Shown here piece by piece: positions 1 through 26,454 of a stretch of DNA of 64,000 bases. The translations under genes were made by a program, and so were the position numbers. The stretch spans positions 2,852,001-2,916,000 of the forward strand of contig OZ374560.1 in NCBI GenBank assembly GCA_977862235.1. Direction: 5' to 3'. Origin of the DNA: Dudresnaya verticillata (lineage: Eukaryota). The notes below the pieces were generated by a model. The model ran no database searches and was not told where the DNA came from. It saw nothing but the letters and a program-made list of their open reading frames with translations. How positions within the stretch are numbered: the first letter of the stretch is position 1; every line of letters starts with the position of its first letter.

Positions 1-185
1 CCGATGATATGTTTCGCTATCCATTCCAATTGAGTGACTGAAGGAAAGATGCTTGTGAATCTTAAACGAGGCACCGACAACTTCACTACTAACTCGGTTC
101 AGCTGCTCCGGTTTGATTACTACAACAGTCAAAACGGCAGGGTTAGACTATTTCACGACTGGTCTAGTTACAGTCTCCCCGATAA

Positions 186-1180
186 CTACGATGCCGGATT
201 ATCGCGGATCACAAACAACGACTTATAACTGTACCCCTCCTCTCCCTGTTTTCGGGAATCGTGTGCTTTCCATCTAGGTAGTCATACGTTGCAATAGCCT
301 CAAGCTGCCCTTTTTCTGACATGTACTGACGTTGTTGATAGACTTCCCATTTGTCTTTAAGGTAGGTTTCGTAACCGTCTGCAGCGCTTCCAATATTATC
401 AAAAGTTGCGTGGAGAGAGTTCTTCCATTTACCGGAATACAGAATAGGCCTGAAACCGTATCTACTACCACGTTGCTGTTCTTGAGTTTATGTCTCATTG
501 TGTATTCAATACCATAGATACGAGAATTGCTCGTGACCTGAAATTCCATCGCGTGGTAAGAAGACTCTGTGCTCCCCTCATCTGTAGGGTCCCCAACGGT
601 TCTGCCTTTAATCGTATCGCTCGGAAGATGGGCTGTATCCCCGTTCCAAATGTACGGAAAGTCCAGCTCAATGTCGAGGTCCGATTCATGCACTATGAGC
701 ATGTTGATGGTAGCTATTGCTCCCAATATGAAAATAACAGCCACCGGATGCTTCAGTAGAGACTTTGTCAGTTTCTTAACAGCTTTTTTAAAGCCCTTGC
801 CGACGGCTTTTCTAGAAACTGATGCTGCAGTCTCAACGCTGTCCCCCGCTATCATACGTTTCGTGAATGTCGACATCAACTTAAATCCAGCCCGTACGCA
901 TGTATTTGTCAACTCCCATACATCTTTGGACACATTTCCGTCCAATTCCTTGAACGCTTTAGAGAAAGCGTACCAAACGTCTTGGCGATATTAGCAACCT
1001 GTTCGGCAAGAACAGATTTTCCCAGCACAAATACACCAAGCCTGAACAACGCATCTGGAATTCGAACAACGCATCTGGAATTCCAACGGAAACCATATAC
1101 GAAAGAGGTATGTTGAAAACGACCGTATCACTAATGCCATTGGTTTCGATATACGTTAATGCAGGTTCTATATCATCAAA
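186..1180 (-). pseudogene. Decayed gene for an unknown protein with a predicted transmembrane helix
   Basis: 223-aa ORF 274-945 has hydrophobic PVAVIFILGAIATINMLIV. Protein-like sequence continues in shifted frames (NSLHATFDN...TYDYLDGKH; YSYKSLFVIRD*). A perfect 20-bp tandem duplication at 1044-1083 shifts the upstream frame. Confidence 0.45.
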
Positions 1181-2282
1181 GGCTTGTGTGATGTTATGCT
1201 ATGATCATGTGACGTGATAATCAAGAAATTAGCCAAACCACTTTTGCTAGAGGAAGTAGGGCTATGTGACGCCACAGCTACCATCCCCATCGAATGACAT
1301 ATATATTTAATAGAACGGGGTGACTAGTACTATCAACCTTTCTTTAGGAAACATGCTCTTCCTAGGGAAAGATTCGTGGTGGATCAACAGATATTGAGTC
1401 CCCCTTTACTGTTTTGCATGTTCGTACATGTGTGTAGGAGAGTGCGTGTTGCATCGAGACGTGTTTTCATTGGTCACGATTGGGGTCTTAGGTACCGTTC
1501 TGAAATGCTACTGGTAGGCTTTCAAAGCGATAAAAAAAGTTCCGAAAATCCACCAGTAATGACACGGCGGGGGCTTTGACACTGAGGGAAGCATCACTTT
1601 AACCAAGGCGTACCAGGAGGTCCCATCAGGGGACGAGACTACGACGAAGGACTGAGGTGCTGAGACGGAGCTGACGGTTCACAGCAAGGGCTACATGTTG
1701 GAGCACAACCAAAACTAGACGAGATGGAGACCTTATGCACTAGACGAGTGAGGAGAGAATTCTTCTCAACAAGCGGATTCGAGCCCTTCTTGCCCGTGAA
1801 AAAGCCAGTAAGTGTTTGCAGTCCAGAATGAAAGCTGATTCCAACTAGACTGTAGATCTACCGGTAGATATTCACTACTAACGGATGAATGGTGATGCCA
1901 TGAACAGGGCAAATATCATGATAGTGGCCGCCCTTAGCACGCTCGCGAGCGGCAAGGGCCTGCCCAGAAACAACGCCAGACGAGCTTGAATGAGAATGAG
2001 GACGGACTTATGATGGAAACGTCGAACGCTTGTGGATGTGAAGCAAAAGTCGGATCATCAATTAACAAATCGAGACGGTAGGGGTCATGATCGGGATGCG
2101 TCGGGATAGGAAAAACGCGACGCCCGCTGGGGCGTATCTACGGGTCGGAGTGCGGAGGGGAATGGGACATGAGCGGAAAGCTGGCTATATACTAGCGACG
2201 CCCCGCCGCGGTAACTGGATCACGAGACTAAGACAGAGAGCCGTCGGATCTGACGGGAAGTATTAACAAGTAGTTTACTATT

Positions 2283-3389
2283 CTACTGGTGATGTAGCAC
2301 GAGCGTTGGGCCGGACTCATCCCAAGTCATCCTTTCCAGCGCTCTTTCTACACAGTTGAAGGTGAAGCTTACTCTCTCATAAATCCTTTCAAACTCCAGG
2401 CACAATTCATCGGGAATGTCCAAATCGAGTGGATCGCGAGGGTCAGGAATACCGTCAAGTGGTGGAGGAGGTATCGTCCCGTTGTGAACATTTTGCGTTG
2501 CGGTTCCAGACCTAGAATAACTGTAGCTGCTTTGGCTTGTCGATGTTTCCGGGCTTGGTTCGTGTTCGAAGGAACTTCTTTCCTCTGATGTGGTGGATGT
2601 ACTCGTGGCTTCGCCCTCAGTCGAAGACCGAGAGCTGCAAAAGCGCACAAGCTGGTCGCTAAATTCAAGACCTCCTCGTACAGCTCTTCCGTATATACTC
2701 ATAAAGCCGTGGAGTTCATCGTGCTGGCACTGCTCGTTCCAGAATGATGATTGCTGCTGGTTTAGGGCATCTGCCATCCTTCCAGGATTAACAAAACCGT
2801 GTTGAATAGACAAAACCTCACCAACATGGATAGTGCCGCGACATAGCGGGCAAGGAATATATGAATAGTCCTTCTCCCGCATATAGTTTAGAATGCAGTG
2901 CACATGGAACACGTTGGGGCAATTTGGGCACTTGACTGTACACATTGGATACATTGGATCGGTGCAAATTGTGCATTCATCGAACATGTTTCCAACGAGT
3001 TCAGATTCCACCAACTGAGAAACCTTGGTGTACTTCAACTCACTTAGGGCTGCGATAGCACTCAAAATCAATCTATGACGAGTTTGCATCTGCCAACAAA
3101 CGTACCAAAACTTCCTTGAGTACGTCTGAAAAGGCATCCGAAGCTGTTGAATTCTTCTCAACCCCTCACTGGCAAGGTTGGCGACTTCGCTTGAGTTTGG
3201 TGACATAGCGCAAAAAGTGGTTTCTAGTCCAGACCTTATGCTAAGCTTTCTGTGGAACGGTTTCTGTTGTTGCCTTTCGAGGAAGCCAGTCGTCTTGGGT
3301 AGGGTTGAAAACTTTGAGAGCGGTGAGAAGTGGCGCTCCTCACCGGAAGAACCACTCCCCAACCACTTATATGCCTTTCTATTTTGCAT
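2283..3389 (-). CDS. RING/PHD-like zinc-finger protein (C4HC3 spacing), 368 aa, start uncertain
   Basis: CTIC-x11-CPNC-x4-H-x2-C-x14-CPLCRG followed by a Ser/Thr-rich tail; ATG-initiated uninterrupted ORF. Confidence 0.7.
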   Translation of the reverse strand: MQNRKAYKWLGSGSSGEERHFSPLSKFSTLPKTTGFLERQQQKPFHRKLSIRSGLETTFCAMSPNSSEVANLASEGLRRIQQLRMPFQTYSRKFWYVCWQMQTRHRLILSAIAALSELKYTKVSQLVESELVGNMFDECTICTDPMYPMCTVKCPNCPNVFHVHCILNYMREKDYSYIPCPLCRGTIHVGEVLSIQHGFVNPGRMADALNQQQSSFWNEQCQHDELHGFMSIYGRAVRGGLEFSDQLVRFCSSRSSTEGEATSTSTTSEERSSFEHEPSPETSTSQSSYSYSRSGTATQNVHNGTIPPPPLDGIPDPRDPLDLDIPDELCLEFERIYERVSFTFNCVERALERMTWDESGPTLVLHHQ

Positions 3390-6300
3390 GGCCGACGAGC
3401 TTCATAGGAAAGTATTTCTGGTGACAATATATACCCGTTCCAATAAAGTTATATATTGTCACAAGAGAGTCTAATGTGAAAAGATTTTCTATCCCATAGC
3501 TCGCACATACTACCAAACGCTAAGAGCAATTTTCCCTCTCCATGGACAGTTCTCTACGGTCGGTGCAGCTAACTTATGATGTTATCATCGGTGTTCTCGG
3601 GATAGTGATGACTCAATTTTTTTATGGGTTGTTTAAGGTGGTCCTACGCGGGCGACACGGGCCCGTTAGCAGGCACACCAGCCCTGGGGGGCGAGTAACA
3701 TTACTTGGTATCTTTACAGAGCGCACTGCAATGTATGTAACTGGATCGGGGTGGGATGAGGGGGGCGATAGGGTCCCGGGGGCCGGGAAAGCAGTCGCGC
3801 AGAGATTTCGAATGGCACGGATGGGTGGTCGCGATAGCAGCAAGATCAACAGTGGTCGGTTTGGCCTTTGACACTTGCGCAGGGCTGGTAAGTGAGAACG
3901 GAGTGTTGCGAGGTGTGATGGGCTTTTCCGTGGGATAGAGAAGGTGCAAAGTGGATGGAATGTGGTCGTTCTCTCGTTCTTGTGACAGCGCCTAAATTTG
4001 TGAAGTTATTGAATGGTTTCACGGACACATTTTGTCCTTGCCTTTACTCACCGGTATCATCTAAGCTACTCGGAACTGGTTCCGGGAACATCCCTACGCG
4101 CATAAAGCATTCCGAAGGAGCAAAGAAGACGACCATCCAAGGCGCGACTGCTGCACCTGTAATACCGGTTCTTCTGTGTTGCACTGCTTCTCGCGAGTTG
4201 GCTCGCGGACCTGTTCGTTCTTCAGTACAGACGCCTTTTTTTACTAGAGCTCCCAGCTTCCGCTCTATTTATGCTCTCAACTCACTGGTACTCTTCCAAT
4301 CTACGTCGTTGTTTCAAATGCAGCGGTCCCTCTAAATGCAAATAGTAAATGCTAACTCGACGGCAAAGCGTCCTATATATATGTCATCTGTCTTCCGCCA
4401 TGGCATGAGTCAATTCATTTCCGGCTCGATTACCTTCTCCAACGTGCATAGCTGTGTAGCTTAGCCAACATCAATTCACGATTCATCCTATTTTCTAACA
4501 CACCGATAGTTGTCGAAGGGAGTGAGGGTTTTGCTACGATTATTCTCGTAGCTACGTCAGAACAAGAGATAACAAGAGATTCGTCGCAGTAAGTTCCGAA
4601 TGGAACGGCGAAACTCCACAGGTTGACTTTCTTTGGGAGCTGCAACAGGATGCTCAAAGAGAACAATGCGGTTGCTGTGGAAGGGATGCGCCATAACCGG
4701 CAGATTTACTTGCAACTATGTCAACTTGCTGGTTTCGAGGATTGGGCGTTGTTGCGTGCATCTTTATTGCTCCAGGACGTGGGAAGCTGAACACAGCTGC
4801 AGTGCTCATGGCTCTCTTGTTCTTTAATAAAGGTCCCCATCTCTCTCCTCTTCCCTCTCTCTCATGGCAAATATCTTCCAAGGAGCTATCAGTGCTGGAC
4901 CTGGTTCCCGTGCTGGTCCACAACCAGCGCCAAATTGCGTCAGGTGCTACTAATAGCGTTTCATCGAATGCTGTGTGGCGACCCCGGCAGCTACGCTGTC
5001 TGCGCTATCCGCCCGTGAGCCGTGGCAGAATCTTCTCTTGAAGCTGTACGCGTGGTCGTTAGTCGTCTTTCCGGCTTTCATCGAGCTATAATACGCGCGC
5101 CCAACTGATGTTATCGCGCGCTGGGCGCCACCCTCCTTCTTAGAGTTGCTAGTTGACGAGCTGTCGGGTTACTAATAGGCCAATCTGCTTTTCACAATGT
5201 GCGTACTGGACATCTACGGACGTCCGCTGAACCAACGCCGTCGGTATTGCGCGGATTGTGAACAGTTGTGCATACCTGGTGTCGAAGTTGGCCACAGCCG
5301 GCGAAACGTACAAGCGGTCCCCCATCTACTGCCTCGTATCGTTGCGTATCGGGAGAAGCGAGCCCCCTTTGGCTATATTGTCCACTAACACCGATGTCTC
5401 CACCGACAGGCATCGGAAATGTCAAAGTTCCAGCTAGCGCGGGGTGGAAGCAAGGCGGCACGAGGCGAGGCTCACAATGTTTGCATGGCCGCTCACCGCC
5501 TCGATCGCGCAGTATCCCTGCACCGTGCTCACGCCTCCCTCGCCCACGGCATCCGTCTCGCTGCGCTGCTCTGCACCCGCATGGATGGCCTCACCGCGGC
5601 GATGGATGTGGGGCACGGTGCACCTCTCACGCAAGGTGCTGGGAGAGGGTACGCCGGGCTCGCAGAACGCGCCGGGGATTCACCGTGGCGGCGGGGTGGG
5701 GCTGTTCAACTGCAGCTTGGACGACCGCGTGGCGCTCCGATGCGTCTACTGCGTCGAGTACGGCGACGCGCAAATACCGGAAGACACCGGGGGAGGCAGC
5801 GTGCCGTGTGTGTTCGAGCTGTCCGCCCCTGCCGGGGTTCGCGCACGGGGTAGCACACCGCGTGCGACAGGCACTGTTTGGGACTCCGGCCGCACCGGTA
5901 ACGGAAAAAGCGTTCTTCGAATCACTTGTCGATCGACTACGATGACGATACGTTCAGTGACGGCGGGATGCTATCCACAAGGGCTGCAGGCAATAACATC
6001 GCAAACACAAATGCAATAAGCAGCATGTTGCACCAATTCTCTCCCCTTCGGCAATAGGTATTGCAATATACAATGTCACTGCAACAACAATTGCAATTGT
6101 AATTACGAGCCCGACAGCCCTGGCACTAACGGCAAAGCGGTTCACTCCCACTCCTTCCCATCGCCCTTCCACGTCTTCTGCTTGCCATACACGAACCCCG
6201 CCGCGTACGGTGGATTGCTGCCGGCTTCGCAGACAATGCGTCCGGGCCTTTTCCTGCACCAGCAAGTCGCGATGCCGGACATCCGTTCGCCCCAGGCGTG

Positions 6301-6593
6301 ACTTACGCACTCTGTGTTATGCTCCCGTACCAGCCGCCCTTCACAGCTCCCCAGTCTCGCAAAATCAATGAAGTAGGTGCGGTGCACAGGCCGTGCGCCG
6401 TTGTGCGTCATGGAAGAAGCAGCAGGTGGAAGGGATGGGATGGGCGAGGGCCATCGAGAAAAGAAGGCGGCGCACCGAATATGTAATACCTATTGTGTCG
6501 TCATGAGCTGCGTCGCAATAATGATTGCTGCAGGCAGTAAACGATGAGATATATTAAACGGCAACGACAAACGTATACTATGGACCAACTCAA

Positions 6594-9500
6594 CTAGTGA
6601 CTTTCTAGTTTCTGGAGTAGTGTGATTGCGGCTCGTTGAGCAAAATCCTCGTTCGACTCTTCACGGTCATTCCGAATACCAACAAACGAGCTTAAACGCC
6701 CGGCCAAGTCAGCAATTTTCGTTGATGGCGATTGACTCCGTCGTTCGTACGTGAAAAACCCTCTCCTCCTGAAAAGATCGTTATTCTCTCCATGGAAAAC
6801 ATCCATCGCCTTCTGACATTCTTCGACCGAGAGTTTGTAGAACAACGGGAAAATCAACGGAGGTTTCTCGCCTCTTCCAACCGCCTCATCCGTCCGCTTG
6901 AAGAATTCTTCCAACTCTAGCATAGGCCACTTGCGAGCCAGGAACTCTGGTGACAGTATGAATATTGCAGCTCTGCTCCCTCGAATTGCAGCCATAATTT
7001 GGTCCTTATTCGTCTTTGTGGATACCTCGAGGCTTTTCTCATCTAAGAAACAACTGACCTTTGTGCCCATTGCATTCATTACCGGCACGGCGAGGCACCC
7101 CTTCTCGCTCCCTGCGTGGCTGATAAATACATCGAAAGGTCTTGCAGCTAGTCGCACGTCAACAGGCCGCGGACCTGAGCCCGCACTTGCTCCTTTGAGG
7201 ATGTGCGGCTTCAATCGCTTGAAAGTCCAAAGCTGCTCGCAAACGCAAGTGCCTTCTGCTCGGTCCAGTGGCTGGCACTGCGTACTTGTTACCCAACTCC
7301 GACGGATACCCAACTGCACGCTACTGGAACTTCCACACCCCCCCGCGCAATTCCTTAGGGCAGTCGGTGATCAGATAGTCTTTCCAGCTTGCATTGGTCC
7401 CATGCAGTGGTCCCTTCAAAAAAATTTCCACGCCCCGCAAACACTGGTGCGCAACCTGCACTGCTTCATCGGCATCCGCCCTTATAGTCCAGTCGATCCA
7501 TCTCTTTTCTGGAATAAAGCGAACCACGACTCTACATGCTCCCGCAAGGGCCAGGATGACGGCATCTTGACGAAGCTCGGGCGGTTTTGTCCGCTCTATT
7601 CCAATGGTTCGGTGAAGGTACGCGATCAGTGACCCTGTCAGACTTGGCGGAATGGTATCAACAAACTCTGTTCGCAAAATTAGTTCACTCTCTCCGTCCT
7701 TTGTGTCACACGAGAACCCTTCCCAACCCTTTGGAAGCAGTGAAGGTATCCCGATTAGCTCGTTCTGTTCACCGTCCGCTCTTTCCACAGCCTGAAGGCG
7801 CATGATGATGTCAAATTGACAAAGAATGTCAAGCATGACTTTTCGGACAGCCGATGGGTATTTACACCACAGTACCTCCAGTGCTTCACGGGGTATCAAC
7901 CCATTCCGATAACCGTCTGCTTCATGCTTTCCCAGAGTCTGTAAAGTCCTTTCAAACTCTTTCGCTTCTTCTTCACCCAGTCTTTCTCGCATAAACTCAG
8001 CCGGGCCCGTGACCTGCCGAATAAAGTCCAGAATAACTGTTGGATCTGGGAACACGAACCATCCCTCGCCCGTCTGCACTTCTACGATATGGCCCTGCTG
8101 ACTCTGGAATTGGACGCATTTCTCAACGTCGGCTTCTCTCTCCTCCTTGTCACTAGAGAATCCGGGAAGTCTGGCAGCATGGCTCTGAACTTCTGTCATT
8201 ACCAGAAAGACTTTTTGGCTTTCAGTGGCGTGCGACAAAATGGTTTCCCTGAGGGCAGCCCACCGAACTGGAACCTCTTCCCTTCCGTCCAGAATGTCTT
8301 CACTCGCTTCCTTGATAAACTTCTCTAGTTCCACAACGCCTGACCCGGCACGGTCTTGTTCAGCACTGCTGTTCTTGTTCTCGATGGCAACCCACCGACA
8401 CTTGTATTTGTCGACATCGCCCTTCTCACGTACCCAATCATTGTAGACAGCCCTTCCAAGATGCTTTCGCAGTTTTTGTCGCAGCTGCTGAAACAAGTCT
8501 TCAGGGCTTTCAACTTCTGCCTTCCTGGTTCCCACCAGGATCACCCAAACGTTTTTCGGGGTTTGCGAAGACGTATGTGCCATTTGCATCCAGTTGCATA
8601 GTTCCAACACTTCGTCCTCTTGGGTGACTTCTGACGCAAACCTTTTCAGGTCTACCACGAAAACAAAAATGGAAGCGCGGCGGATGAAGATTGCGGGAAC
8701 ACTGAGGTACTCTGCCTGACCCCCAAGGTCCCAGCATTGCACCAACGCAGCTCGATTATCCGCAGGTAATGGGTTACTCATGAGCCCTTGCCGTGCTGCT
8801 TCCCAAATGGGAGACGATAGGGAGTTTAAAGACTGCGAAGCAGCAATACTGGGCGGAGCTGGTGGTTGTTGAGCAGTGGTATGGCTGCTTGCCAATGTGT
8901 CTCCACTCTGGGGAACGGTCCTCTTGGTCGGAGGAGCTCGGTTGAGCGAAGTGGGGGGTTTAAGGTGCAATCTTGCGGTGGATTTTTCACTCGGCCGCGA
9001 TGGTGCATCAGTTGCAGTTGGGAGAAACGCCGATCCAGCTCGAAAGGAGCCGGCATCGGATGCACTTGCTGTAGATGACGTTGGTCGTTCCGTTGGCGTG
9101 GGTACCTCTTGAATCTCGGACCGTGACATGAGGGCATGGAAGGCCTCGCTGTTGAAGGCGAGCTGGTCGACAATGTCATCGTCCAACTTGGGGCCGTCCG
9201 GGACGACAAGAGTGCGACTCAGCGACACAAAGTGTGTCGGCTGGTGGGTGGCAACGAAGGGCATGGAGCGCAGGCTCCTTACCGTGCTTGTCTTGCCGCG
9301 TGCCGCACCGCCGAGAACAAGAAGAAAGCACTGCCGTGGCTTTGCTGTGGCGGTCTTGAGGGTGTTTTCAACAAGTGTGCTGGTGTCACCGATGCGGTTA
9401 AGAAGGTATTGCAAGTGGCTGCCGAAGAATTCAAGTTCAAAAGGCGTTAGCTGTTGATGCGCTGCTTGTTGATGCAGTTGGGCTGCTGCGTGCTCATCGC

Positions 9501-10671
9501 GAGCAACACCGACATCTCCGCGGCCAAGCAATGTGGCGAGCTCATAGAGTGCGACGCGGGAGCGATGGAGTTCGATTGAGCGTTGGAAGAGGCTCTTCGC
9601 GCGCGGCGGATCGCGCGCGTCTCCGATATGATTGGACAAAAGCGCTTGGCCCAACCAAACCATACACATTGGGGCGCTCTCGTGACCGCTGTCGCAGGCG
9701 CGTTGGAGCAGTTCGACGCCGCGCGGAACGTCTCTCGGAACATCGATTTCGCCGCTCAGCAGCAATTCGCCCAAAACGGCCATTGCGACGACATTTTCGC
9801 CCTCCGCGATGGCGCGGTCGTACAGCGCAGCGGCGCGCGGAGCGTCTTTGGCGACGCCGTCGCCGTTTTCGAGGAGAACGCCCAAATTGACCATTGCGGC
9901 GACATTTTCGCCCTCCGCGATGGCGCGCTCGTACAGCGCAGCGGCGCGTGGAGCGTCTTTGGCGACGCCGTCGCCGTTTGCGAGGAGATCGCCCAAATTG
10001 ACCATTGCGGCGACATCTTCGCCCTCCGCGATGGCGCGGTCGAACAGCGCAGCGGCGCGTGGAGCGTCTTTGGCGACGCCGTCGCCGTTTTCGAGGAGAA
10101 CGCCCAAATTGACCATTGCGGCGACATTTTTGCCCTCCGCGATGGCGCGCTCGAACAGCGCAGCGGCGCGCGGAGCGTCTTTGGCGACGCCGTCGCCATT
10201 TGCGAGGAGAACGCCCAAATTGAGCATTGCCTGCACATCCGCAAACTCTGCAACGGCTCGTTCGTACAGCGCTGCCGCGCGCTTTGTGTCTTTGACAAAA
10301 TGGCGCCATCCTTCAGAGAGATTCCATCCGAGATTGTACAGCGACACCCCGCGCGGATCTCGCGCGTTGGCGCGCTCGACCAGCTCCGCGGCGCGGCGCT
10401 CGTCCTTGGGCACTCCCGCGGCCCCTTCCTTTAGCAACAGTGCAAGGCCATGCCACGCATGGCATGACGCTTCGACACGGCATGTCGCTTTGTCACAGTC
10501 ATCGTCGCCCTCATCAATCGCTCGCTCGAACAAGGCGACGGCTTGCAAAGGTAGAACAGGCCCTCCATCTGAAGCGCCCCAGCACACAAAGGCGAGTGCA
10601 AGCATGTCGTCGACATCGGCATTGTCGTCGATAGCTTGGCGAAGGGCACGGCGCTGCGGTGTGGCATCCAT
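6594..10671 (-). pseudogene. Sel1-repeat/Roc/COR/TIR protein, paralog 1 copy A; +1 frameshift before TIR (G7 tract)
   Basis: First ATG at 10671 (MDATPQ); Sel1 units; P-loop GGAARGKT; WDLGGQ; COR motifs. Frame stops at 7321 and the TIR lies in the separate ORF 6594-7319; C7 at 7338-7344. Confidence 0.85.
9767..10290 (-). repeat. 111-bp coding tandem repeat (Sel1 units), paralog 1 copy A
   Basis: GACCATTGCGGCGACAT recurs at 9889, 10000 and 10111 (period 111 bp = 37 aa). Confidence 0.95.
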
Positions 10672-10766
10672 GTCGGCAGGAGCGGGCGGTCGAGCCGGTG
10701 GAGACGGTTGGAGATGGGATGGTTGGGGTGTGTGTGTCGGGAGCGAGTGCGCCAAGCGCACGGCGC

Positions 10767-10773
10767 TATTTAT
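10767..10773 (-). promoter_or_regulatory. Candidate TATA-like box (ATAAATA) ~95 bp upstream of the receptor ATG
   Basis: Isolated AT run in GC-rich flank, present upstream of all three copies (also ~18936, ~30629). Function is inference. Confidence 0.35.
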
Positions 10774-11699
10774 GCCGCGATGAAAGTTGCGAGTGGGACG
10801 GCGGGAGGTGTTGCATCGCGGCGTGTGTGGCGGTCCCAGAGCGTGCAGCAGGCGACTTGCTGGCGGTTGTAGGAAGAGAGGTTCTCGCGGTGCCGCGAGG
10901 TGCCGCGTGGGCGGCTGTGTGCCGCGCGGCGGAGCTGTTTTGCGCGGATGTTGTAAAAGTCGAAAGGCGCGTTGTCACGTCAGAGCAGTGCACGTGTATT
11001 TGGCGCTTGCGCCGATTGGCGCTCTGCGAGATGTTTCGGCCACGCACAAACGTCGTCATCGCTACAGCCCTTACAACAGAGTCGCGAGCCATCCTTCATC
11101 GCTTCGCGAGCTTCGTGCGGAGCAAGACCTGCTCCCCGCGAGCCGACTCCGGCCGTGTCCGGCCATGTTTTTCTGTCGGCGTCCGGCACGCCCGAGGTCT
11201 GAGGTGTTGGACATGAGGCGCTGGCCTAGTGGCCTGTGACGCGGCTACGGAAGTCATCCAACGGGCGGCGCATTGCCGGTTGTTGGCGGAGGCGGTTGTC
11301 GTGTGCTGCGCGACGTGCGATCTCCCATCTCTTTTTGCCACGCAGCAGCCGCGTCTGTATGCCGGCGGATGTTGTAAAAGTCGGCAGGCGCGTCGCGTCG
11401 TTCATCAGCGGCTGTATGCTGCGGATGCGCATCACTGTATTTCTACATCTGCAGCATCTTTGTCCCACCGCAAGTGCACCTCGCACGACAATGACGACAA
11501 ACACAGCTCTCAACGCGACTCTCTCTCTCGATGGAAGCGCACTCGGCGATGCGCTGCCGCCGCCGACCGACCATGCAATGCGCGCGAGGTGTTGTTTCTT
11601 TATTGGTGTGGTCGCATAGCGTCATTCCTTGTTATAAGAATGCTTCGGTAAAAGAACAAGCCTTCCGTCCACCGATCCGGTTCCTTTGAAATCAGCCAG

Positions 11700-12470
11700 T
11701 ACAGCTCACGTATGAGGGCCACATTCCTCGATAGCTGCTCGTGCACCTTTTACTGCCCTCCCGAATACCTATCGCGGTACTCGCTTCACCCCGGAGGAAT
11801 GGATTACCGCGTGTGATATCCGCTTGGGCAACCCGGTTTTTACCGGCACTACTCGTTGTCCCCACTGTGTACTCACGCGGGGCGTGACGCAAGCTCCTCT
11901 ACTTGATCCTCGCGGGAAACATGCCATCATCCGCGCTAGGCGCGAAGGTGCTATCCGGCGTCATAACACCTTACGCGATGCTCTAGCCAACGAATTCCGC
12001 CAGTTGGGCCTACGCCCTATCTATGTCGAATACTCGTTTCTCGCCGAACGTCATCTGCCCCCTACTTCTCGTCGCCGTATGGACGTGGTGGTTCCTATAT
12101 CTGCCTTTAGCCCCCGCCCTCAGGCCTTTGACGTTACGGTGGCAGCCCCGTTTGCTGCCAATTACTGCACTGCCGCCTCTCGCTTGGGTGGGGCAGCGGC
12201 GACGCTCGCTGAAAGGCCCAAAAGAGCGCATTACCAAGATCTACTCGACAGCGAGGGAATGGATTGGCCGCTTTACGTCCGAACAGAGAGGGAGTAACCC
12301 TTCGGACGAAACGCAAGCACTCACGAATCGCATTGTATCTCATCTTCTCCGCTTTCAGGCGCTGGCGATCAATCGCCGTCGTCTTGCCCTTCAGGTAGGT
12401 CCTTGCGTAGACGGGGCGACTTAGCGCCCTTCCAACCCTACCATAAAGGTCCCCATCTCTCCCATCTCTC
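11700..12470 (+). mobile_element. 5'-truncated non-LTR retrotransposon, CRE-like (restriction-like endonuclease C-terminus)
   Basis: ...EEWITACDIRLG...CPHC...DPRGKHA...RRHNTLRDAL...E...RRMDV...AFDVTV..P...AE..K..HY matches the zinc-knuckle/REL pattern; ends in a (CCATCTCTC)2 tail; no RT present. Confidence 0.8.
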
Positions 12471-13007
12471 AGAGCAGTGCACGTGTAGTGTATTTGGCGC
12501 TTGCGCGCGCTCCGCACGCGCCGCCATCCGACAATCATCCGCGGCGCCCATCGATCACAGTCCCATCGTCACCTCGCGCCGCCGCCGCTGCAGCATTCTG
12601 CCGACACATCGCTACATCACGCGCTGCACCACGCTCGCCCCCCGCGGACGCACAGCACATCACATCCACAGAACTGGCGGTGCGCAGCAGGACAATGATA
12701 CCTCGTCCCTCCCCTCCGCCGCGGCAGCAAAGCAGACCCACAAAAGTGTCTAAAAAAGCATTCCAATCTCCAATCGCATCGCCAACGCGTCAGCCCCTTA
12801 CTCCATGTCGATACCGTTTTGGCGGTAGTGGTGCTCTTTAATTGATGGTTGTAGCTGTGTTGGTGGAGGTACGTAGTTCGGTAACAATACTCTTTGGCTG
12901 AAGCACTTACTATGTTTCGCTCAGTGAAGGCACCCCGCCCTCTCACCCCAAAAAGCAGTATTGCGCCCCGCCCCGTACGCAACACAGCAGGAGAGTCAGA
13001 ACGCTCA

Positions 13008-13278
13008 AACCGACGTCATCGCTACGGCCCTTACAACAGAGTCGCGAGCCTTCGTTCATCGCAGCGCGATGCACGCGTATTTGGGGCTTGTGCGGATTGG
13101 CTCACTGTGGGATCTTTTGGCCACACCCAAACGTCGTCATCGTACAGCTGAACTCAGTCGCGCAATCCCATCCATCATCCACCGCAACCGTCAGCATTTC
13201 GTGCCCACCAAGCCACCTCGAGCTGCGCTCAACTCTGCCCGTGTTGCGCAGTCTCGCCGTCACACCTGCTGCCGCGCC
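13008..13278 (+). repeat. Left arm of ~260-bp imperfect inverted repeat (also at ~32870-33140)
   Basis: Reverse complement of 19168-19425 with substitutions and indels. Confidence 0.85.
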
Positions 13279-14880
13279 AGACATCCCGACCACGCCTACC
13301 GCCGCTCTGCTCGCTGCAACCACCCGGCGAATCGCCCCCCTCGCTCCCATTGTACACTCACACCCCTTGTTGTCCGTTGTCCTTGGCAGCAAGACTTGCT
13401 CGCTGTGGTGCACTCGCACACCATCGCGCCCCAGCCCGCGCCACTATGTTATTCGCTCCAGGTGTTGCATACGCTGTTTGACAATGTGCGTACTGGACAT
13501 CTACGGACGTCCGCTGAACCAACGCCGTCGGTATTGCGCGGATTGTGAACAGTTGTGCATACCTGGTGTCGCAGTTGGCCACAGCAGACGAAACATACAA
13601 GCGGTCCCCCATCTACTGCCTCGTATCGTTGCGTATCGGGAGAAGCGAGCCCCCTTTGGCTATATTGCCCACTAACACCGATGTCTCCACCGACAGGCAT
13701 CGGAAATGTCAAAGTTCCAGCTAGCGCGGGGAGGAAGCAAGGCGGCACGAGGCGAGGATCACAATGTTTGCATGGCCGCTCACCGCCTCGATCGCGCAGT
13801 ATCCCTGCACCGTGCTCACGCCTCCCTCGCCCACGGCATCCGTCTCGCTGCGCTGCTCTGCACCCGCATGGATGGCCTCACCGCGGCGATGGATGTGGGG
13901 CACGGTGCACCTCTCACGCAAGGTGCTGGGAGAGGGTACGCCGGGCTCGAAGAACGCGCCGGGGATTCACCGTGGCGGCGGGGTGGGGCTGTTCAACTGT
14001 AGCTTGGACGACCGCGTGGCGCTCCGATGCGTCTACTGCGTCGAGTACGGCGACGCGCAAATACCGGAAGACACCGGGGGAGGCAGCGTGCCGTGCGTGT
14101 TCGAGCTGTCCGCCCCTGCCGGGGTTCGCGCACGGGGTAGCACACCGCGTGTGATAGGCACTGTTTGGGACTCCGGCCGCACCGGTAACGGAAAAAGCGT
14201 TCTTCGAATCACTTGTCGATCGACTACGATGACGATACGTTCAGTGACGGCGGGATGCTATCCACAAGGGCTGCAGGCAATAACATTGCAAACACAAATG
14301 CAATAAGCAGCATGTTGCACCAATTCTCTCCCCTTCGGCAATAGGTATTGCAATATACAATGTCACTGCAACAACAATTGCAATTGTAATTACGAGCCCG
14401 ACAGCCCTGGCACTAACGGCAAAGCGGTTCACTCCCACTCCTTCCCATCGCCCTTCCACGTCTTCTGCTTGCCATACACGAACCCCGCCGCGTACGGTGG
14501 ATTGCTGCCGGCTTCGCAGACAATGCGTCCGGGCCTTTTCCTGCACCAGCAAGTCGCGATGCCGGACATCCGTTCGCCCCAGGCGTGACTTACGCACTCT
14601 GTGTTATGCTCCCGTACCAGCCGCCCTTCACAGCTCCCCAGTCTCGCAAAATCAATGAAGTAGGTGCGGTGCACAGGCCGTGCGCCGTTGTGCGTCATGG
14701 AAGAGGCAGCAGGTGGAAGGGATGGGATGGGCGAGGGCCATCGAGAAAAGAAGGCGGCGCACCGAATATGTAATACCTATTGTGTCGTCATGAGCTGCGT
14801 CGCAATAATGATTGCTGCAGGCAGTAAACGATGAGATATTTTAAACGGCAACGACAAACGTATACTATGGACAAACTCAA

Positions 14881-17800
14881 CTAGTGACTTTCTAGTTTCT
14901 GGAGTAGTGTGATTGCGGCTCGTTGAGCAAAATCCTCGTTCGCCTCTTCGCGGTCATTCCGAATACCAACAAACGAGCTTAAACGCCCGGCCAAGTCAGC
15001 AATTTTCGTTGATGGCGATTGACTCTGTCGTTCGTATTCGAAAAACCCTCTCCTCCTGAAAAGATCGCTATTCTCTCCATGGAAAACATCCATCGCCTTC
15101 TGACACTCTTCGACCGAGAGTTTGTAGAACAACGGGAAAATCAAGGGAGGTTTCTCGCCTCTTCCAACCGCCTCATCCGTCCGCTTGAAGAATTCTTCCA
15201 GCTCTAGCATAGGCCACTTGCGAGCCAGGAACTCTGGTGACAGTATGAATATTGCAGCTCTGCTCCCTCGAATTGCAGCCATAATTTGGTCCTTATTCGT
15301 CTTTGTGGATACCTCGAGGCTTTTCTCATCTAAGAAACAACTGACCTTTGTGCCCATTGCATTCATTACCGGCACGGCGAGGCACCCCTTCTCGCTCCCT
15401 GCGTGGCTGATAAATACATCGAAAGGTCTTGCAGCTAGTCGCACGTCAACAGGACGCGGACCTGAGCCCGCACTTGCTCCTTTGAGGATGTGCAGCTTCA
15501 ATCGCTTGAAAGTCCAAAGCTGCTCGCAAACGCAAGTGCCTTCTGCTGGGTCCAGTGGCTGGCACTGCGTACTTGTTACCCAACTCCGACGGATACCCAA
15601 CTGCACGCTACTGGAACTTCCACACCCCCCGCGCAATTCCTTAGGGCAGTCGGTGATCAGATAGTCTTTCCAGCTTGCATTGGTCCCATGCAGTGGTCCC
15701 TTCAAAAAACTTTCCATGCCCCGCAAACACTGGTGCGCAACCTGCACTGCTTCATCGGCATCCGCCCTTATAGTCCAGTCGATCCATCTCTTTTCTGGAA
15801 TAAAGCGAACCACGACTCTGCATGCTCCCGCAAGGGCCAGGATGACGGCATCTTGACGAAGCTCGGGCGGTTTTGTCCGCTCTCTTCCAATGGTTCGGTG
15901 AAGGTACGCGATCAGTGACCCTGTCAGACTTGGCGGAATGGTATCAACAAACTCTGTTCGCAAAATTAGTTCACTCTCTCCATCCTTTGTGTCACACGAG
16001 AACCCTTCCCAACCCTTTGGCAGCAGTGAAGGTATCCCGATTAGCTCGTTCTGTTCACCGTCCGCTCCTTCCACAGCCTGAAGGCGCATGATGATGTCAA
16101 ATTGACAAAGAATGTCAAGCATGACTTTTCGGACAGCCGATGGGTATTTACACCACAGTGCCTCCAGTGCTTCACGGGGTATCAACCCATTCCGATAACC
16201 GTCTGCTTCATGCTGTCCCAGAGTCTGTAAAGTCCTTTCAAACTCTTTCGCTTCTTCTTCACCCAGTCTTTCTCGCATAAACTCAGCCGGGCCCGTGACC
16301 TGCCGAATAAAGTCCAGAATAACTGTTGGATCTGGGAACACGAACCATCCCTCGCCCGTCTGCACTTCTACGATATGGCCCTGCTGACTCTGGAATTGGA
16401 TGCATTTCTCAACGTCGGCTTCTCTCTCCTCCTTGTCACTAGAGAATCCGGGAAGTCTGGCAGCATGGCTCTGAACTTCTGTCATTTCCAGAAAGACCTT
16501 TTGGCTTTCAGTGGCGTGTGACCAAATGGCTTCCCTGAGGGCAGCCCATCGAACTGGAACTCGTTCCCTTCCGTCCAGAATGTCTTCACTCGCTTCCTTG
16601 ATAAACTTCTCTAGTTCCACAACGCCTGACCCGGCACGGTCTTGTTCAGCACTGCTGTTCTTGTTCTCGATGGCAACCCACCGACACTTGTATTTGTCGA
16701 CATCGCCCTTCTCACGTACCCAATCATTGTAGACAGCCCTTCCAAGATGCTTTCGCAGTTTTTGTCGCAGCTGCTGAAACAAGTCTTCAGGGCTTTCAAC
16801 TTCTGCCTTCCTGGTTCCCACCAGGATCACCCAAACGTTTTTCGGGGTTTGCGAAGACGTATGTGCCATTTGCATCCAGTTGCATAGTTCCAACACTTCG
16901 TCCTCTTGGGTGACTTCTGACGCAAACCTTTTCAGGTCTACCACGAAAACAAAAATGGAAGCGCGGCGGATGAAGATTGCGGGAACACTGAGATACTCTG
17001 CCTGACCCCCAAGGTCCCAGCATTGCACCAACGCAGCGCGATGGTCCTCAGGAAAAACGTTACTCAAGAGCCCTTGTCGTGCTGCTTCCCAAATGGGAGA
17101 CGCTTGGGAGTTTATAGACTGCGAAGCAGCAATACTGGGCGGAGCTGGTGGTTGTTGAGCAGTGGTATGGCTGCTTGCCAATGTGTCTCCACTCTGGGGA
17201 ACGGTCCTCTTGGTCGGAGGAGCTCGGTTGGGCCAAGTGGGGAGTTTAAGGCGGAATCTTGCGGTGGATTTTTCACTCGGCCGCGATGATGCATCAGTTG
17301 CCGTGGGCAGCCGGAACAATGTAGCTCTTGACATGAGGGCATGCAAGGCCTCACTGTTGAAGGCGAGCTGGTTGACAATGTCATCGTCCAACTTGGGGCC
17401 GCCGGGGACAACAAGAGTGCGACTCAGCGACACAAAGTGTGTCGGCTGGTGGGTGGCAACGAAGGGCATGGAGCGCAGGCTCCTTACCGTGCTTGTCTTG
17501 CCGCGTGCCGCACCGCCGAGAACAAGAAGAAAGCACTGCCGTGGCTTTGCTGTGGCGGTCTTGAGGGTGTTTTCAACAAGTGTGCTAGTGTCACCGATGT
17601 GGCTAAGAAGGTATTGCCATTGGCTGCCGAAGACTTTAAGCTCAAGAGGCGTTACCTGTTGATGCGCTACTTGTTGATGCAGTTGGGCTGCTGTTTGCTC
17701 ATCGCTAGCAACACCGACATCTCCGCGGGCAAGCAATGTGGCGAGCTCATAGAGTGCGACGCGGGTGCGATGGAGTTCGATTGAGCGTTGGAAGAGGTTC

Positions 17801-18840
17801 TTCGCGCGCGGCGGATCGCGCGCGTCTCCGATATGATTGGACAAAAGCGCTTGGCCCAACCAAACCATATAAATTGGGGCCCTCTCGTGACCGCTGTCGC
17901 AGGCGCGTTGGAGCAGTTCGACGCCGCGCGGAACGTCTCGCGGAACATCGATTTCGCCGCTCAGCAGCAATTTGCCCAAATTGGACATTGCGATGACATT
18001 TTCGCCCTCCGCGATGGCGCGGTCGTACAGCGCAGCGGCGCGCGGAGCGTCTTTGGCGACGCCGTCGCCGTTTGCGAGGAGAACGCCCAAATTGACCATT
18101 GCGTCCACATTCGCAAACTCTGCAACGGCTCGTTCTAACAGCGCAGCGGCGCGCGGAGCGTCTTTGGCGACGCCGTCGCCGCTTTCGAGGAGAAAGCCCA
18201 AATTGACCATTGCGTCCACATTCGCAAACTCTGCAACGGCTCGTTCGAACAGCGCAGCGGCGCGCGGAGCGTCTTTGGCGACGCCGTCGCCGCGTCTGAG
18301 GAGAACGCCCAAATTGGACATTGCGACGGCATTTTCGCCCTCCGCGATGGCGCGCTCGAACAGCGCAGCGGCGCGCGGAGCGTCTATGGCGACGCCGTCA
18401 CCGGTTGCGAGGAGAAGGCCCAAATTGACCATTGCGTTCACAATCGCAAACTCTGCAACGGCTCGTTCGTACAGCGCTGCCGCGCGCTTTGTGTCTTTGA
18501 CAAAACCGCGCGATCCGTTATCGAGACGCAGTCCGAGATTGAACAGCGACACCCCGCGCGGATCTCGCGCGTTGGCGCGCTCGACCAGCTCCGCGGCGCG
18601 GCGCTCGTCCTTGGGCACTCCCACGGCACCTTCCTTCAGCAACAGTGCAAGGCCATGCCGCGCTTCGTCATGGTCGCCCTCATCAATCGCTCGCTCGAGC
18701 AAGGCGACGGCTCGCAAAGGCAGAACGGGCCCTCCATCTGATGCGTCCCAAAACGCAAAGGCGAGTGCAACCATGTCGTGGACGTCGGCATTGTCGTCGA
18801 TAGCTTGGCGAAGGGCAAGGCGCTGCGGTGTGGCATCCAT
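14881..18840 (-). CDS. Intact Sel1-repeat/Roc GTPase/COR/TIR protein, paralog 2 (1319 aa from first ATG)
   Basis: Single ORF: 37-aa Sel1 units (AMxNLGxLLxxGDGVAKDAPRAAAL); Roc G1 GGAARGKTS, G2 HQPT, G3 WDLGGQ, G4-like LVGTRK; COR (VPVRW, FPDPTVI, IPSLLP); TIR (FDVFISHAG...FLD...ILSPEFLARKWPMLEL...PLFY). C6 at 15625-15630. Confidence 0.92.
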   Translation of the reverse strand: MDATPQRLALRQAIDDNADVHDMVALAFAFWDASDGGPVLPLRAVALLERAIDEGDHDEARHGLALLLKEGAVGVPKDERRAAELVERANARDPRGVSLFNLGLRLDNGSRGFVKDTKRAAALYERAVAEFAIVNAMVNLGLLLATGDGVAIDAPRAAALFERAIAEGENAVAMSNLGVLLRRGDGVAKDAPRAAALFERAVAEFANVDAMVNLGFLLESGDGVAKDAPRAAALLERAVAEFANVDAMVNLGVLLANGDGVAKDAPRAAALYDRAIAEGENVIAMSNLGKLLLSGEIDVPRDVPRGVELLQRACDSGHERAPIYMVWLGQALLSNHIGDARDPPRAKNLFQRSIELHRTRVALYELATLLARGDVGVASDEQTAAQLHQQVAHQQVTPLELKVFGSQWQYLLSHIGDTSTLVENTLKTATAKPRQCFLLVLGGAARGKTSTVRSLRSMPFVATHQPTHFVSLSRTLVVPGGPKLDDDIVNQLAFNSEALHALMSRATLFRLPTATDASSRPSEKSTARFRLKLPTWPNRAPPTKRTVPQSGDTLASSHTTAQQPPAPPSIAASQSINSQASPIWEAARQGLLSNVFPEDHRAALVQCWDLGGQAEYLSVPAIFIRRASIFVFVVDLKRFASEVTQEDEVLELCNWMQMAHTSSQTPKNVWVILVGTRKAEVESPEDLFQQLRQKLRKHLGRAVYNDWVREKGDVDKYKCRWVAIENKNSSAEQDRAGSGVVELEKFIKEASEDILDGRERVPVRWAALREAIWSHATESQKVFLEMTEVQSHAARLPGFSSDKEEREADVEKCIQFQSQQGHIVEVQTGEGWFVFPDPTVILDFIRQVTGPAEFMRERLGEEEAKEFERTLQTLGQHEADGYRNGLIPREALEALWCKYPSAVRKVMLDILCQFDIIMRLQAVEGADGEQNELIGIPSLLPKGWEGFSCDTKDGESELILRTEFVDTIPPSLTGSLIAYLHRTIGRERTKPPELRQDAVILALAGACRVVVRFIPEKRWIDWTIRADADEAVQVAHQCLRGMESFLKGPLHGTNASWKDYLITDCPKELRGGCGSSSSVQLGIRRSWVTSTQCQPLDPAEGTCVCEQLWTFKRLKLHILKGASAGSGPRPVDVRLAARPFDVFISHAGSEKGCLAVPVMNAMGTKVSCFLDEKSLEVSTKTNKDQIMAAIRGSRAAIFILSPEFLARKWPMLELEEFFKRTDEAVGRGEKPPLIFPLFYKLSVEECQKAMDVFHGENSDLFRRRGFFEYERQSQSPSTKIADLAGRLSSFVGIRNDREEANEDFAQRAAITLLQKLESH
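17970..18500 (-). repeat. 111-bp coding tandem repeat (Sel1 units), paralog 2
   Basis: Same period and scaffold, different variable codons and unit order. Confidence 0.95.
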
Positions 18841-19167: not shown

Positions 19168-19425
19168 GGCGCGGCAGCGGCCGTGACGGCGAGACTGCGC
19201 AACGGTTTGGTGGGCACGAAATGCTGGCGGTGGATGACGGATGGGATTGCGAGACTGAGCTGAGCGGCGGAGCGCGAGACTGCAGCGGTACGATGACGAT
19301 GTTTGGGAGTGGTCAAAAGATCCCACAGTGAGCCAATCCGCGCAGGCGCCAAATACATGTGCACCGCGCTGCGATGAAGGAAGGCTCGCGACTCTGTTGT
19401 AAGGGCTGCAGCGATGACGACGGTT
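19168..19425 (-). repeat. Right arm of ~260-bp imperfect inverted repeat
   Basis: e.g. AAAAGATCCCACAGTGAGCCAATCCGC and GGCTCGCGACTCTGTTGTAAGGGC are exact reverse complements of sequence in 13028-13118. Confidence 0.85.
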
Positions 19426-20046
19426 AGCGGCGAAGGCCAAGTTTCCCTCCTCTTGGTCTACTTGGCATTGCCTGCTATGATTTTTATCTCCCCGCCCCAT
19501 TAATCGCGACCAGGACGACTATTTCTTCGGTCGTAGACGAAGTAGGGCGAGGTACAGAATAGTTCTATTGCGGGGCTCGGTCGGAATCCGCACTAGCGGA
19601 GAACAGTTCTTTCACGCTGCCGTGGCTATTCCTCCAGGATACGACGTGTTAAACAGGATTGAGCACGAGCTCTCCCCTTTTAAGGAAGCCACTGCAGTTT
19701 TGACGGTCTTGAAACCGCATATGAAGATGCTCCTATGGCCAAAATGAGAGTACGTTGGCGATAAAAGAGCGAAGACCAACAAGTCATTTGGCCAGTTCAA
19801 AGATAAAGATTGTTGTTCGAATTGGGGTATTTCTAACGTTTAGGTGCCTTCTATCGCATTTCCGATGATATGTTTCGCTATCCATTCCAATTGAGTGACT
19901 GAAGGAAAGATGCTTGTGAATCTTAAACGAGGCACCGACAACTTCACTACTAACTCGGTTCAGCTGCTCCGGTTTGATTACTACAACAGTCAAAACGGCA
20001 GGGTTAGACTATTTCACGACTGGTCTAGTTACAGTCTCCCCGATAA

Positions 20047-21041
20047 CTACGATGCCGGATTATCGCGGATCACAAACAACGACTTATAACTGTACCCCTC
20101 CTCTCCCTGTTTTCGGGAATCGTGTGCTTTCCATCTAGGTAGTCATACGTTGCAATAGCCTCAAGCTGCCCTTTTTCTGACATGTACTGACGTTGTTGAT
20201 AGACTTCCCATTTGTCTTTAAGGTAGGTTTCGTAACCGTCTGCAGCGCTTCCAATATTATCAAAAGTTGCGTGGAGAGAGTTCTTCCATTTACCGGAATA
20301 CAGAATAGGCCTGAAACCGTATCTACTACCACGTTGCTGTTCTTGAGTTTATGTCTCATTGTGTATTCAATACCATAGATACGAGAATTGCTCGTGACCT
20401 GAAATTCCATCGCGTGGTAAGAAGACTCTGTGCTCCCCTCATCTGTAGGGTCCCCAACGGTTCTGCCTTTAATCGTATCGCTCGGAAGATGGGCTGTATC
20501 CCCGTTCCAAATGTACGGAAAGTCCAGCTCAATGTCGAGGTCCGATTCATGCACTATGAGCATGTTGATGGTAGCTATTGCTCCCAATATGAAAATAACA
20601 GCCACCGGATGCTTCAGTAGAGACTTTGTCAGTTTCTTAACAGCTTTTTTAAAGCCCTTGCCGACGGCTTTTCTAGAAACTGATGCTGCAGTCTCAACGC
20701 TGTCCCCCGCTATCATACGTTTCGTGAATGTCGACATCAACTTAAATCCAGCCCGTACGCATGTATTTGTCAACTCCCATACATCTTTGGACACATTTCC
20801 GTCCAATTCCTTGAACGCTTTAGAGAAAGCGTACCAAACGTCTTGGCGATATTAGCAACCTGTTCGGCAAGAACAGATTTTCCCAGCACAAATACACCAA
20901 GCCTGAACAACGCATCTGGAATTCGAACAACGCATCTGGAATTCCAACGGAAACCATATACGAAAGAGGTATGTTGAAAACGACCGTATCACTAATGCCA
21001 TTGGTTTCGATATACGTTAATGCAGGTTCTATATCATCAAA
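20047..21041 (-). pseudogene. Duplicate of decayed gene at 186-1180
   Basis: Identical ORF 20135-20806 in duplication copy B. Confidence 0.45.
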
Positions 21042-26200: not shown

Positions 26201-26454
26201 TTCACAGCTCCCCAGTCTCGCAAAATCAATGAAGTAGGTGCGGTGCACAGGCCGTGCGCCGTTGTGCGTCATGGAAGAAGCAGCAGGTGGAAGGGATGGG
26301 ATGGGCGAGGGCCATCGAGAAAAGAAGGCGGCGCACCGAATATGTAATACCTATTGTGTCGTCATGAGCTGCGTCGCAATAATGATTGCTGCAGGCAGTA
26401 AACGATGAGATATATTAAACGGCAACGACAAACGTATACTATGGACCAACTCAA

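What the first reader, a model, noticed from the sequence alone, without database searches (positions are those of the whole stretch)
7338..7344. A G6/G7/G8 homopolymer just before the TIR domain sets effector on/off differently in each copy
Seen: the same tract is C7 at 7338-7344, C6 at 15625-15630 and C8 at 27199-27206, i.e. all three frames. Only G6 fuses TIR; G7 and G8 give sensor-Roc-COR proteins ending GGVWKFQ* and GGGVEVPVACSWVSVGVG*. The disconnected TIR frames are otherwise undamaged (about 6 substitutions in 241 aa versus the intact copy), and this is the only net length change across the two 13.5-kb duplicates. Inference: a slipped-strand, phase-variation-like switch giving TIR-less sensor or decoy subunits. 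Strong caveat: homopolymers are the commonest long-read assembly error, and both helicases also show frameshifts.
Basis: partly seen in the sequence, partly recalled or inferred. Interest (0 to 1): 0.72.

Follow-up and report, generated by a model that had tools for sequence, protein, structure and literature searches.

The report
Frameshifted seaweed Roco-TIR gene duplicates
Two of three tandem copies of an immune-receptor-like gene, likely from a red seaweed, are broken by one or two extra G's in a short run of G's, which is most likely an ordinary recent loss of spare copies (or a sequencing error) and not a built-in on/off switch.

Summary
In detail: C7 (7338-7344), C6 (15625-15630) and C8 (27199-27206), and only the C6 copy reads through to TIR. 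The genes are Sel1-Roc-COR-TIR Roco proteins; their named relatives are Chondrus crispus proteins. The switch or decoy reading is poorly supported. The run lies inside COR-B, in a conserved four-cysteine knuckle, about 48 residues before the end of COR and 67 codons before TIR. The shifted products would therefore lose the segment that matches the dimerisation part of the solved bacterial COR. The run is not conserved: Gly-Gly occurs in 6 of 26 homologs, Gly-Gly-Gly in none. Family members end early at scattered places, none at this site. Best reading (0.55): a real slippage mutation knocked out lineage A, which was then duplicated, and a further one-base slip or consensus error separates the two copies. 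Assembly error in both copies stays open (0.30). No reads, genome or second isolate could be obtained, and three of the four differences between the twin copies cluster within 95 bp. A selected reversible switch is about 0.07.

The parts
7338..7344 (-). G7 tract of copy A1 (+1 against the in-frame G6)
7321..10671 (-). Copy A1 CDS from the first ATG (start inferred): Sel1 repeats, Roc, COR cut inside COR-B; 1116 aa, ends GGVWKFQ*
6594..7337 (-). Disconnected frame of A1: rest of COR-B (three of the four conserved Cys) plus an undamaged TIR; no in-frame ATG before the first TIR strand
7424..7431 (.). Two substitutions against A3 within 95 bp of the tract (7424: A in A1, T in A3, C in B; 7431: C in A1, T in A3 and B)
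14881..18840 (-). Copy B, intact Sel1-Roc-COR-TIR CDS from the first ATG (start inferred), 1319 aa
15625..15630 (-). G6 tract of copy B, encoding Gly-Gly in the first knuckle of the Cys module
15526..15648 (-). Conserved four-Cys module (P0001 C1138, C1146, C1176, C1178) in the C-terminal part of COR-B; zinc binding is inferred
15481..16560 (-). COR domain of copy B (model residues 1-360 match C. tepidum COR 3DPT 629-938, Z 19.3)
14884..15423 (-). TIR domain of copy B; Glu at the catalytic position (P0001 E1286) kept in all three copies
27199..27206 (-). G8 tract of copy A3 (+2)
27150..30533 (-). Copy A3 CDS from the first ATG (start inferred), 1127 aa, ends GGGVEVPVACSWVSVGVG*
26455..27198 (-). 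Disconnected frame of A3, identical to that of A1
1..13211 (.). Left twin block (runs off the window start); 3 substitutions and 1 indel against 19862-33073
19862..33073 (.). Right twin block
13212..13487 (.). End segment 3% diverged (8 of 276 bp) from 33074-33349; likely an older paralogous flank marking the crossover point

Best explanation
Copies A1 and A3 of a Sel1-Roc-COR-TIR gene carry one and two extra G's in a Gly-Gly run inside COR-B, and these are likely real replication-slippage mutations that turned a redundant gene copy into a young pseudogene, not a programmed switch. Inferred order: an older duplication split A from B (about 2% diverged); the G6 run of A gained a base; a very recent duplication of about 19.9 kb (unequal crossover near 13211, or a second pass by the assembler) doubled the broken A; one more single-base slip, a short conversion from an unseen paralog, or a consensus error then separated G7 from G8. 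The products would be Sel1-Roc proteins with a cut COR-B, lacking the predicted dimerisation segment and TIR, and so probably inactive. Shown: tract lengths, frames, position within COR, lack of conservation of the run. Inferred: that the extra bases are real, the order of events, and loss of function.
For: (1) Parsimony: a true length of 7 or 8 needs one change to explain both copies, while a true 6 or 9 needs three bases of error over two copies. (2) The sequence looks clean elsewhere: 156 of 158 runs of 4 or more have equal length in the twins, and a second G/C run of 6 in the same gene (8953/28815) is in frame in both. (3) G9 would give a Cys spacing of 8 with three Gly, seen in 0 of 26 homologs; spacing is 6 in 16, 7 in 1, shorter or unclear in 9. 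(4) The gain direction fits real slippage: in C. elegans msh-2 knockdown lines G/C runs under 9 bp gain bases and G/C indel rates peak at 8 bp (PMC8727991, passages). (5) The family and the neighbourhood decay often: 29 of 52 family members end early at scattered points, and both helicases are broken by stops or truncation. (6) The cut falls inside COR: C. tepidum COR 629-938 aligns to model 2-360 and the tract is at 311-312. CtRoco 892-940 is the dimerisation part (PMC11052575, passages).
Against: (1) Two of the three substitutions in 13.2 kb lie within 95 bp of the tract (P about 7e-4), one at a three-state A/T-run boundary; this needs a local cause such as conversion or an unstable consensus. 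(2) The disconnected TIR frames show no decay: no stops, Glu kept, and A keeps the commoner homolog residue at 2 sites against B at 2 to 4. An artefact predicts this equally well. (3) GC homopolymers are a documented source of false frameshifts in HiFi and Racon consensus (10.1101/2021.07.02.450803, passages). (4) The twins' agreement is no independent check if they were built from the same reads. (5) The early ends among homologs may be contig edges or gene-caller fragments (not tested). (6) Helicase 1's one-base loss is in a C run. (7) The slippage data come from repair-deficient worms, not algae.
Confidence: 0.55

Rival explanations
1. Assembly artefact: A1 and A3 are really in frame (G6 or G9; possibly one locus assembled twice), and long-read consensus or polishing miscalled the run in a near-identical repeat. 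All copies then encode full Sel1-Roc-COR-TIR proteins.
For: The tract is the only coding lesion in A1 and A3. C7 and C8 are the longest G/C runs in the window. Differences cluster at the site. HiFi reads vary at long GC runs, Illumina supported longer lengths, and Racon made false frameshifts at GC-rich runs (10.1101/2021.07.02.450803). Homopolymer length is the dominant nanopore error (PMC7483855).
Against: Needs three bases of error over two copies while 156 of 158 other runs agree. Other G/C runs of 6 inside ORFs are in frame. G9 has no precedent in 26 homologs. G6 to G7/G8 would be overcalling, the opposite of the HiFi bias reported.
Confidence: 0.3
2. A selected, reversible, contingency-locus-like switch: slippage toggles each copy among G6 to G9, so clones differ in how many TIR-bearing receptors they make.
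For: Three lengths in three copies, and the only indel in 3,835 bp of A against B. The downstream frame is intact. A 7-C tract is long enough for reversible switching in M. tuberculosis glpK (10.1101/717272, abstract). If the cluster of differences is a conversion tract, a further paralog with another out-of-frame length exists (inference).
Against: The run is not conserved: Gly-Gly in 6 of 26 homologs, none longer. A G6 per gene is expected by chance. None of 29 early-ending homologs stops at this site. No mixed population could be examined. Eukaryotic mismatch repair keeps 6-8-base runs far more stable than bacterial contingency tracts (own knowledge).
Confidence: 0.07
3. The frameshift is real and fixed, and the truncated Sel1-Roc-partial-COR proteins are kept as decoys or dominant-negative sensors.
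For: The 1116- and 1127-aa frames are otherwise intact. Long TIR-less Sel1-Roc-COR ORFs occur among relatives from Logan contigs: P0027 ends about 10 residues after the knuckle and P0028 ends after the whole COR. A monomeric CtRoco has this segment disordered, so a product without it might still fold.
Against: The cut removes the segment matching the COR dimer interface, which a decoy subunit would need (inference). The two new tails differ and are unrelated. The 5 of 29 early ends between tract and TIR are not more than chance (P = 0.10). A premature stop about 700 nt before the normal stop may trigger decay (inference).
Confidence: 0.05
4. Recoding: an intron that removes the tract, internal re-initiation, or ribosomal frameshifting restores a TIR-bearing product.
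For: A 297-302-nt GT..AG candidate with a branch-like motif spans the tract in all three copies and restores the frame.
Against: That candidate would delete about 99 residues that align without a break in homologs and fold as COR-B. The first in-frame ATG after the tract is at codon 87, past the TIR start at codon 68. No stable structure follows the run (z about -0.5). G7 and G8 would need opposite shifts.
Confidence: 0.03

Closest known systems
Red-algal TPR/Sel1-ROCO-TIR proteins (Chondrus crispus XP_005712860.1 and XP_005710386.1; architecture named in PMC11378527)
   Same: Same domain order, conserved four-Cys module and TIR glutamate; 33-36% identity over the Roc-COR-TIR part.
   Different: Here three tandem copies, two frameshifted; the extra residue in the knuckle and the G6 run are peculiar to this lineage.
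Frameshift pseudogenes in tandem immune-receptor clusters (birth-and-death turnover; recalled from plant NLR clusters, no call)
   Same: A young duplicate broken at the gene's most slippage-prone run, in a TE- and pseudogene-rich region, with the most diverged part being the sensor repeats.
   Different: No further lesion yet, so it cannot be told from an assembly error without reads.
Bacterial homopolymer phase variation (e.g. M. tuberculosis glpK 7C tract, 10.1101/717272)
   Same: A short coding G/C run whose length sets the frame.
   Different: There, rapid reversion in clones was measured. Here nothing shows reversion, the run is not conserved, and the host is a eukaryote.
Chlorobium tepidum Roco (CtRoco; PDB 3DPT, 6HLU, 8R4B)
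   Same: COR fold matches model residues 2-360 (Z 19.3, rmsd 4.2, 279 aligned).
   Different: LRR sensor instead of Sel1; 14% identity; dimerisation of the algal protein is inferred, not shown.

Membership tests
Roco proteins | Roc GTPase domain | tested here: met
   Pfam Roc 34.2 bits, cutoff 27; P-loop-like and G3-like motifs in all copies
Roco proteins | COR domain directly after Roc | tested here: met
   No Pfam COR hit, but the AF2 model (pLDDT 90.6) matches CtRoco COR: Foldseek E 1e-9, Z 19.3
Roco proteins | GTPase activity and COR-mediated dimer cycle | not testable with these tools
   Needs biochemistry
Red-algal Sel1/TPR-ROCO-TIR family | Sel1 repeats, Roc-COR, C-terminal TIR in one ORF | tested here: met
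   Met for copy B; same order in P0020, P0022, P0023/P0170. A1 and A3 lack the fused TIR as sequenced.
Enzymatic (NADase-type) TIR domains | Catalytic-position glutamate and TIR fold | tested here: met
   Glu in 31 of 31 aligned homologs with a residue there; Z 19.2 to RUN1 TIR; activity itself not tested
Simple-sequence contingency loci (phase variation) | Tract length sets the reading frame of a coding sequence | tested here: met
Simple-sequence contingency loci (phase variation) | High-frequency reversible length change within a clone or population | not testable with these tools
   No reads, genome or second isolate were available
Simple-sequence contingency loci (phase variation) | Tract kept across relatives or longer than chance allows | tested here: not met
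   Judged from proteins only: Gly-Gly in 6 of 26 homologs, three Gly in 0; G/C runs of 6: 16 seen, 14.7 expected
Young frameshift pseudogene in a tandem family | Frame break with an intact paralog nearby | tested here: met
Young frameshift pseudogene in a tandem family | Further lesions or relaxed selection after the break | tested here: inconclusive
   No second lesion; post-tract pN/pS 0.46 on 13 changes against 0.5 in COR before the tract
Young frameshift pseudogene in a tandem family | Break present in accurate reads | not testable with these tools
   No reads were available

The most novel reading that the evidence does not exclude
A eukaryotic contingency locus: in a red-algal Sel1-Roco-TIR cluster a G run in COR-B slips often enough (G6 to G9) that copies, clones or tissues switch the TIR NADase on and off, tuning the dose of a potentially self-toxic immune receptor, with gene conversion spreading tract states between paralogs.
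Probability: 0.07. Interest if true: 0.75.

Novelty: new member of a known kind. Interest (0 to 1): 0.22.

Why it matters
As read here it is ordinary: a snapshot of gene turnover, or a consensus error, in a tandem array of a little-studied red-algal Roco-TIR family. The side value is anatomical. These proteins carry a conserved four-cysteine module in the COR-B dimerisation segment and a TIR that keeps its catalytic-position glutamate, so they are candidate NADase-type immune receptors of seaweeds. If the tract proved to switch reversibly, it would be a bacterial-style phase-variation mechanism in a eukaryotic immune gene. Two literature searches listed no such case, which is weak evidence because the library is partial.

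Tried and rejected
No whole genome is held for this window, so further paralogs and the left extent of the duplication could not be seen. The look-up of sequencing runs: none was listed, so no reads could be laid. Metagenome scans found no relative (158 pattern matches, none confirmed) and no exact match to the tract flanks. The first word-based protein search found only a WD40-TIR protein; relatives came. Earlier findings: nothing by place, sequence or the first word search. A COR homodimer prediction was not run because the queue was full, so dimerisation of the algal COR rests on structural likeness only. The Chondrus genome paper was not held; what it says about these genes was not seen. 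Pfam gives no COR hit on the window's proteins; this is no evidence of absence given. Rejected: an intron over the tract, re-initiation and ribosomal frameshifting; a C-terminal 'linker' position for the tract; helicase frameshifts as proof of poor assembly; Cys1166 as a conserved ligand (looked conserved in the pairwise alignment, not). In one search the regular expression gave spacing 8 for P0020 and P0069 by starting at an earlier Cys; I read both as 6 from the alignment. The 26 homologs came from 27 hits I picked by hand out of 150 because they seemed to span the region (P0116 dropped).

Full report
Observation. The three tracts are as described: C7 at 7338-7344, C6 at 15625-15630 and C8 at 27199-27206. 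On the minus strand copy B is one 1392-codon frame. From the first ATG the proteins are 1116 (A1), 1319 (B) and 1127 aa (A3). Pfam finds Sel1 repeats, Roc and TIR in B, Sel1 and Roc in A1, and TIR in both disconnected frames. C7 and C8 are the only G/C runs of 7 or more in 64 kb; runs of 6 number 16 against 14.7 expected.

Layout. Positions 1-13487 recur at 19862-33349 with 11 substitutions and one gap. The differences are unevenly spread. The first 13,211 bp hold three substitutions (3455, 7424, 7431) and the tract; the last 276 bp hold eight. B shares 98.1% with A over 3.8 kb and 90.9% over the sensor region, and the tract is the only indel in the 3,835 bp of the first block. I infer an older A/B duplication, then a very recent duplication of about 19.9 kb with a crossover near 13211. 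An assembler passing twice through a repeat would leave the same pattern. Two of the three substitutions lie within 95 bp of the tract (P about 7e-4), and site 7424 has a different base in each copy. This points to a local event: conversion from an unseen paralog or an unstable consensus. I cannot separate the two.

What the gene is. A search of 1.84 billion representatives returned 771 hits at E up to 0.001, of which 150 were listed. Of the 149 examined, 52 cover at least 60 residues of Roc-COR. I looked up 13 hits in all; the two clusters that carry names are Chondrus crispus XP_005710386.1 and XP_005712860.1. TPR-ROCO-TIR is reported for C. crispus in PMC11378527 (passages). The window is therefore likely red-algal (inference). 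An AlphaFold2 model of P0001 residues 834-1392 from a 42-sequence alignment has mean pLDDT 90.6. Its residues 2-360 match C. tepidum COR 629-938 (Z 19.3), and 377-559 match plant TIR domains (Z 19.2). The TIR glutamate is present in 31 of 31 homologs with a residue at that column, and in all three copies.

Where the tract sits. The two glycines are model residues 311-312, in the loop between strands 297-303 and 319-323, just before the second of four conserved cysteines. That is 48 residues before the end of COR and 67 codons before TIR. The GTP-state CtRoco structures align only to model 1-300. The paper describing them says residues 892-940 are the dimerisation part of COR-B (PMC11052575, passages). 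The shifted products would therefore lose most of the matching segment as well as TIR. They are not clean sensor-Roc-COR proteins, which weakens the decoy idea. That the algal COR dimerises through this segment is inferred.

Is the run a conserved device? In 26 homologs spanning the knuckle, the spacing between the first two cysteines is 6 in 16, 7 in one, and shorter or unclear in nine; B has 7. Gly-Gly occurs in 6 and Gly-Gly-Gly in none. This is judged from proteins, as no homolog DNA was available. Of the 52 family members, 29 end early, at positions spread from 79 to 736 of the query, and none at the tract (645). Five end between tract and TIR, no more than chance (P = 0.10). Some of these ends may be contig edges. 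Two long TIR-less ORFs (P0027, P0028) are the only support for TIR-less forms as a recurring type. P0120 appears by eye to shift frame about eight codons later, at another site.

Real or error? For real: a true length of 7 or 8 needs one change, 6 or 9 needs three bases. Of 158 runs of 4 or more, 156 agree between the twins. A second run of 6 in the same gene stays in frame. G9 has no precedent among homologs. Short G/C runs gain bases in repair-deficient C. elegans lines, where A/T transversions at run boundaries are also common (PMC8727991, passages). For error: the tract is the only lesion, the TIR shows no decay, the differences cluster, and GC runs are known sources of false frameshifts (10.1101/2021.07.02.450803 and PMC7483855, passages). 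The helicases do not favour error. Helicase 2 has three in-frame stops, helicase 1 stops matching its homolog about 90 residues before the end, and only helicase 1's shift lies in a run of 4. What the search for reads and genomes gave is told under Tried and rejected.

Recoding. One GT..AG candidate of 297-302 nt spans the tract in every copy, but it would delete conserved, folded COR-B sequence. The first in-frame ATG after the tract lies inside TIR, and no stable RNA structure follows the run.

Comparison and verdict. It works like slipped-strand frameshifting at a coding homopolymer, the same chemistry as bacterial phase variation (glpK 7C, 10.1101/717272, abstract only). It is not shown to be a contingency locus: reversibility could not be tested and conservation of the tract was not met. 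Two paper searches for a eukaryotic immune-receptor case (listings only) gave none. PMC8307928 (passages) gave background only. No supplements were read. Earlier scan notes on similar cases in other genomes reached similar verdicts; they are unchecked and not used as support. Odds: young pseudogenes by real slippage 0.55, assembly error 0.30, selected switch 0.07, functional decoys 0.05, recoding 0.03. Interest 0.22.

Noticed in passing
window 15526-15648 (and homologs P0020-P0130): A four-cysteine module, usually preceded by a His (Asp in these copies), is conserved in the C-terminal part of COR-B across this red-algal Roco family; zinc binding is a guess.
   Followed up: partly
window 17580-18840 against 9400-10671: The N-terminal and Sel1 part of A against B has pN/pS 1.01, against 0.43 (Roc) and 0.50 (COR), and is about three times more diverged than COR; fits a fast-changing sensor.
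   Followed up: partly
window 7424-7431, 15710-15717, 27286-27293: A three-state site at an A/T run boundary and a second substitution, both within 95 bp of the tract; unexplained, possibly the trace of an unseen paralog.
   Followed up: partly
window 13477-13487, 5190, 33340-33349: The junction between A1's flank and B's flank has a short microhomology, suggesting how the older duplication joined.
   Followed up: no
window 13008-13278 and 19168-19425: A segment upstream of the A copies recurs inverted upstream of B (75-80% identity); shorter pieces also lie at 10981-11109.
   Followed up: no
window 40849-44930 and 58469-63126: Two Upf1/Sen1-like helicase paralogs (AAA_11/AAA_12). The first has a one-base loss in a Pro-Pro codon pair and lacks its C-terminus; the second has several shifts and three in-frame stops. 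Intact homolog P0005.
   Followed up: yes
window 48911-52258: A 1115-codon open frame with no Pfam hit whose Atlas neighbours are KDZ-transposase and CxC clusters (score 0.96, KDZ on 23% of members); a lead only.
   Followed up: partly
window 34794-36965: Retroelement pol fragment (RT-RNase H, integrase) right of the array.
   Followed up: no
window 2283-3401 and 22144-23262: A RING-finger gene duplicated together with the Roco gene.
   Followed up: no
P0025, P0029, P0030: Relatives swap end domains on the same Roc-COR core: ankyrin-Roc-COR-TIR, TIR-Roc-COR-TIR, and Sel1-Roc-COR with an unrecognised C-terminus.
   Followed up: no
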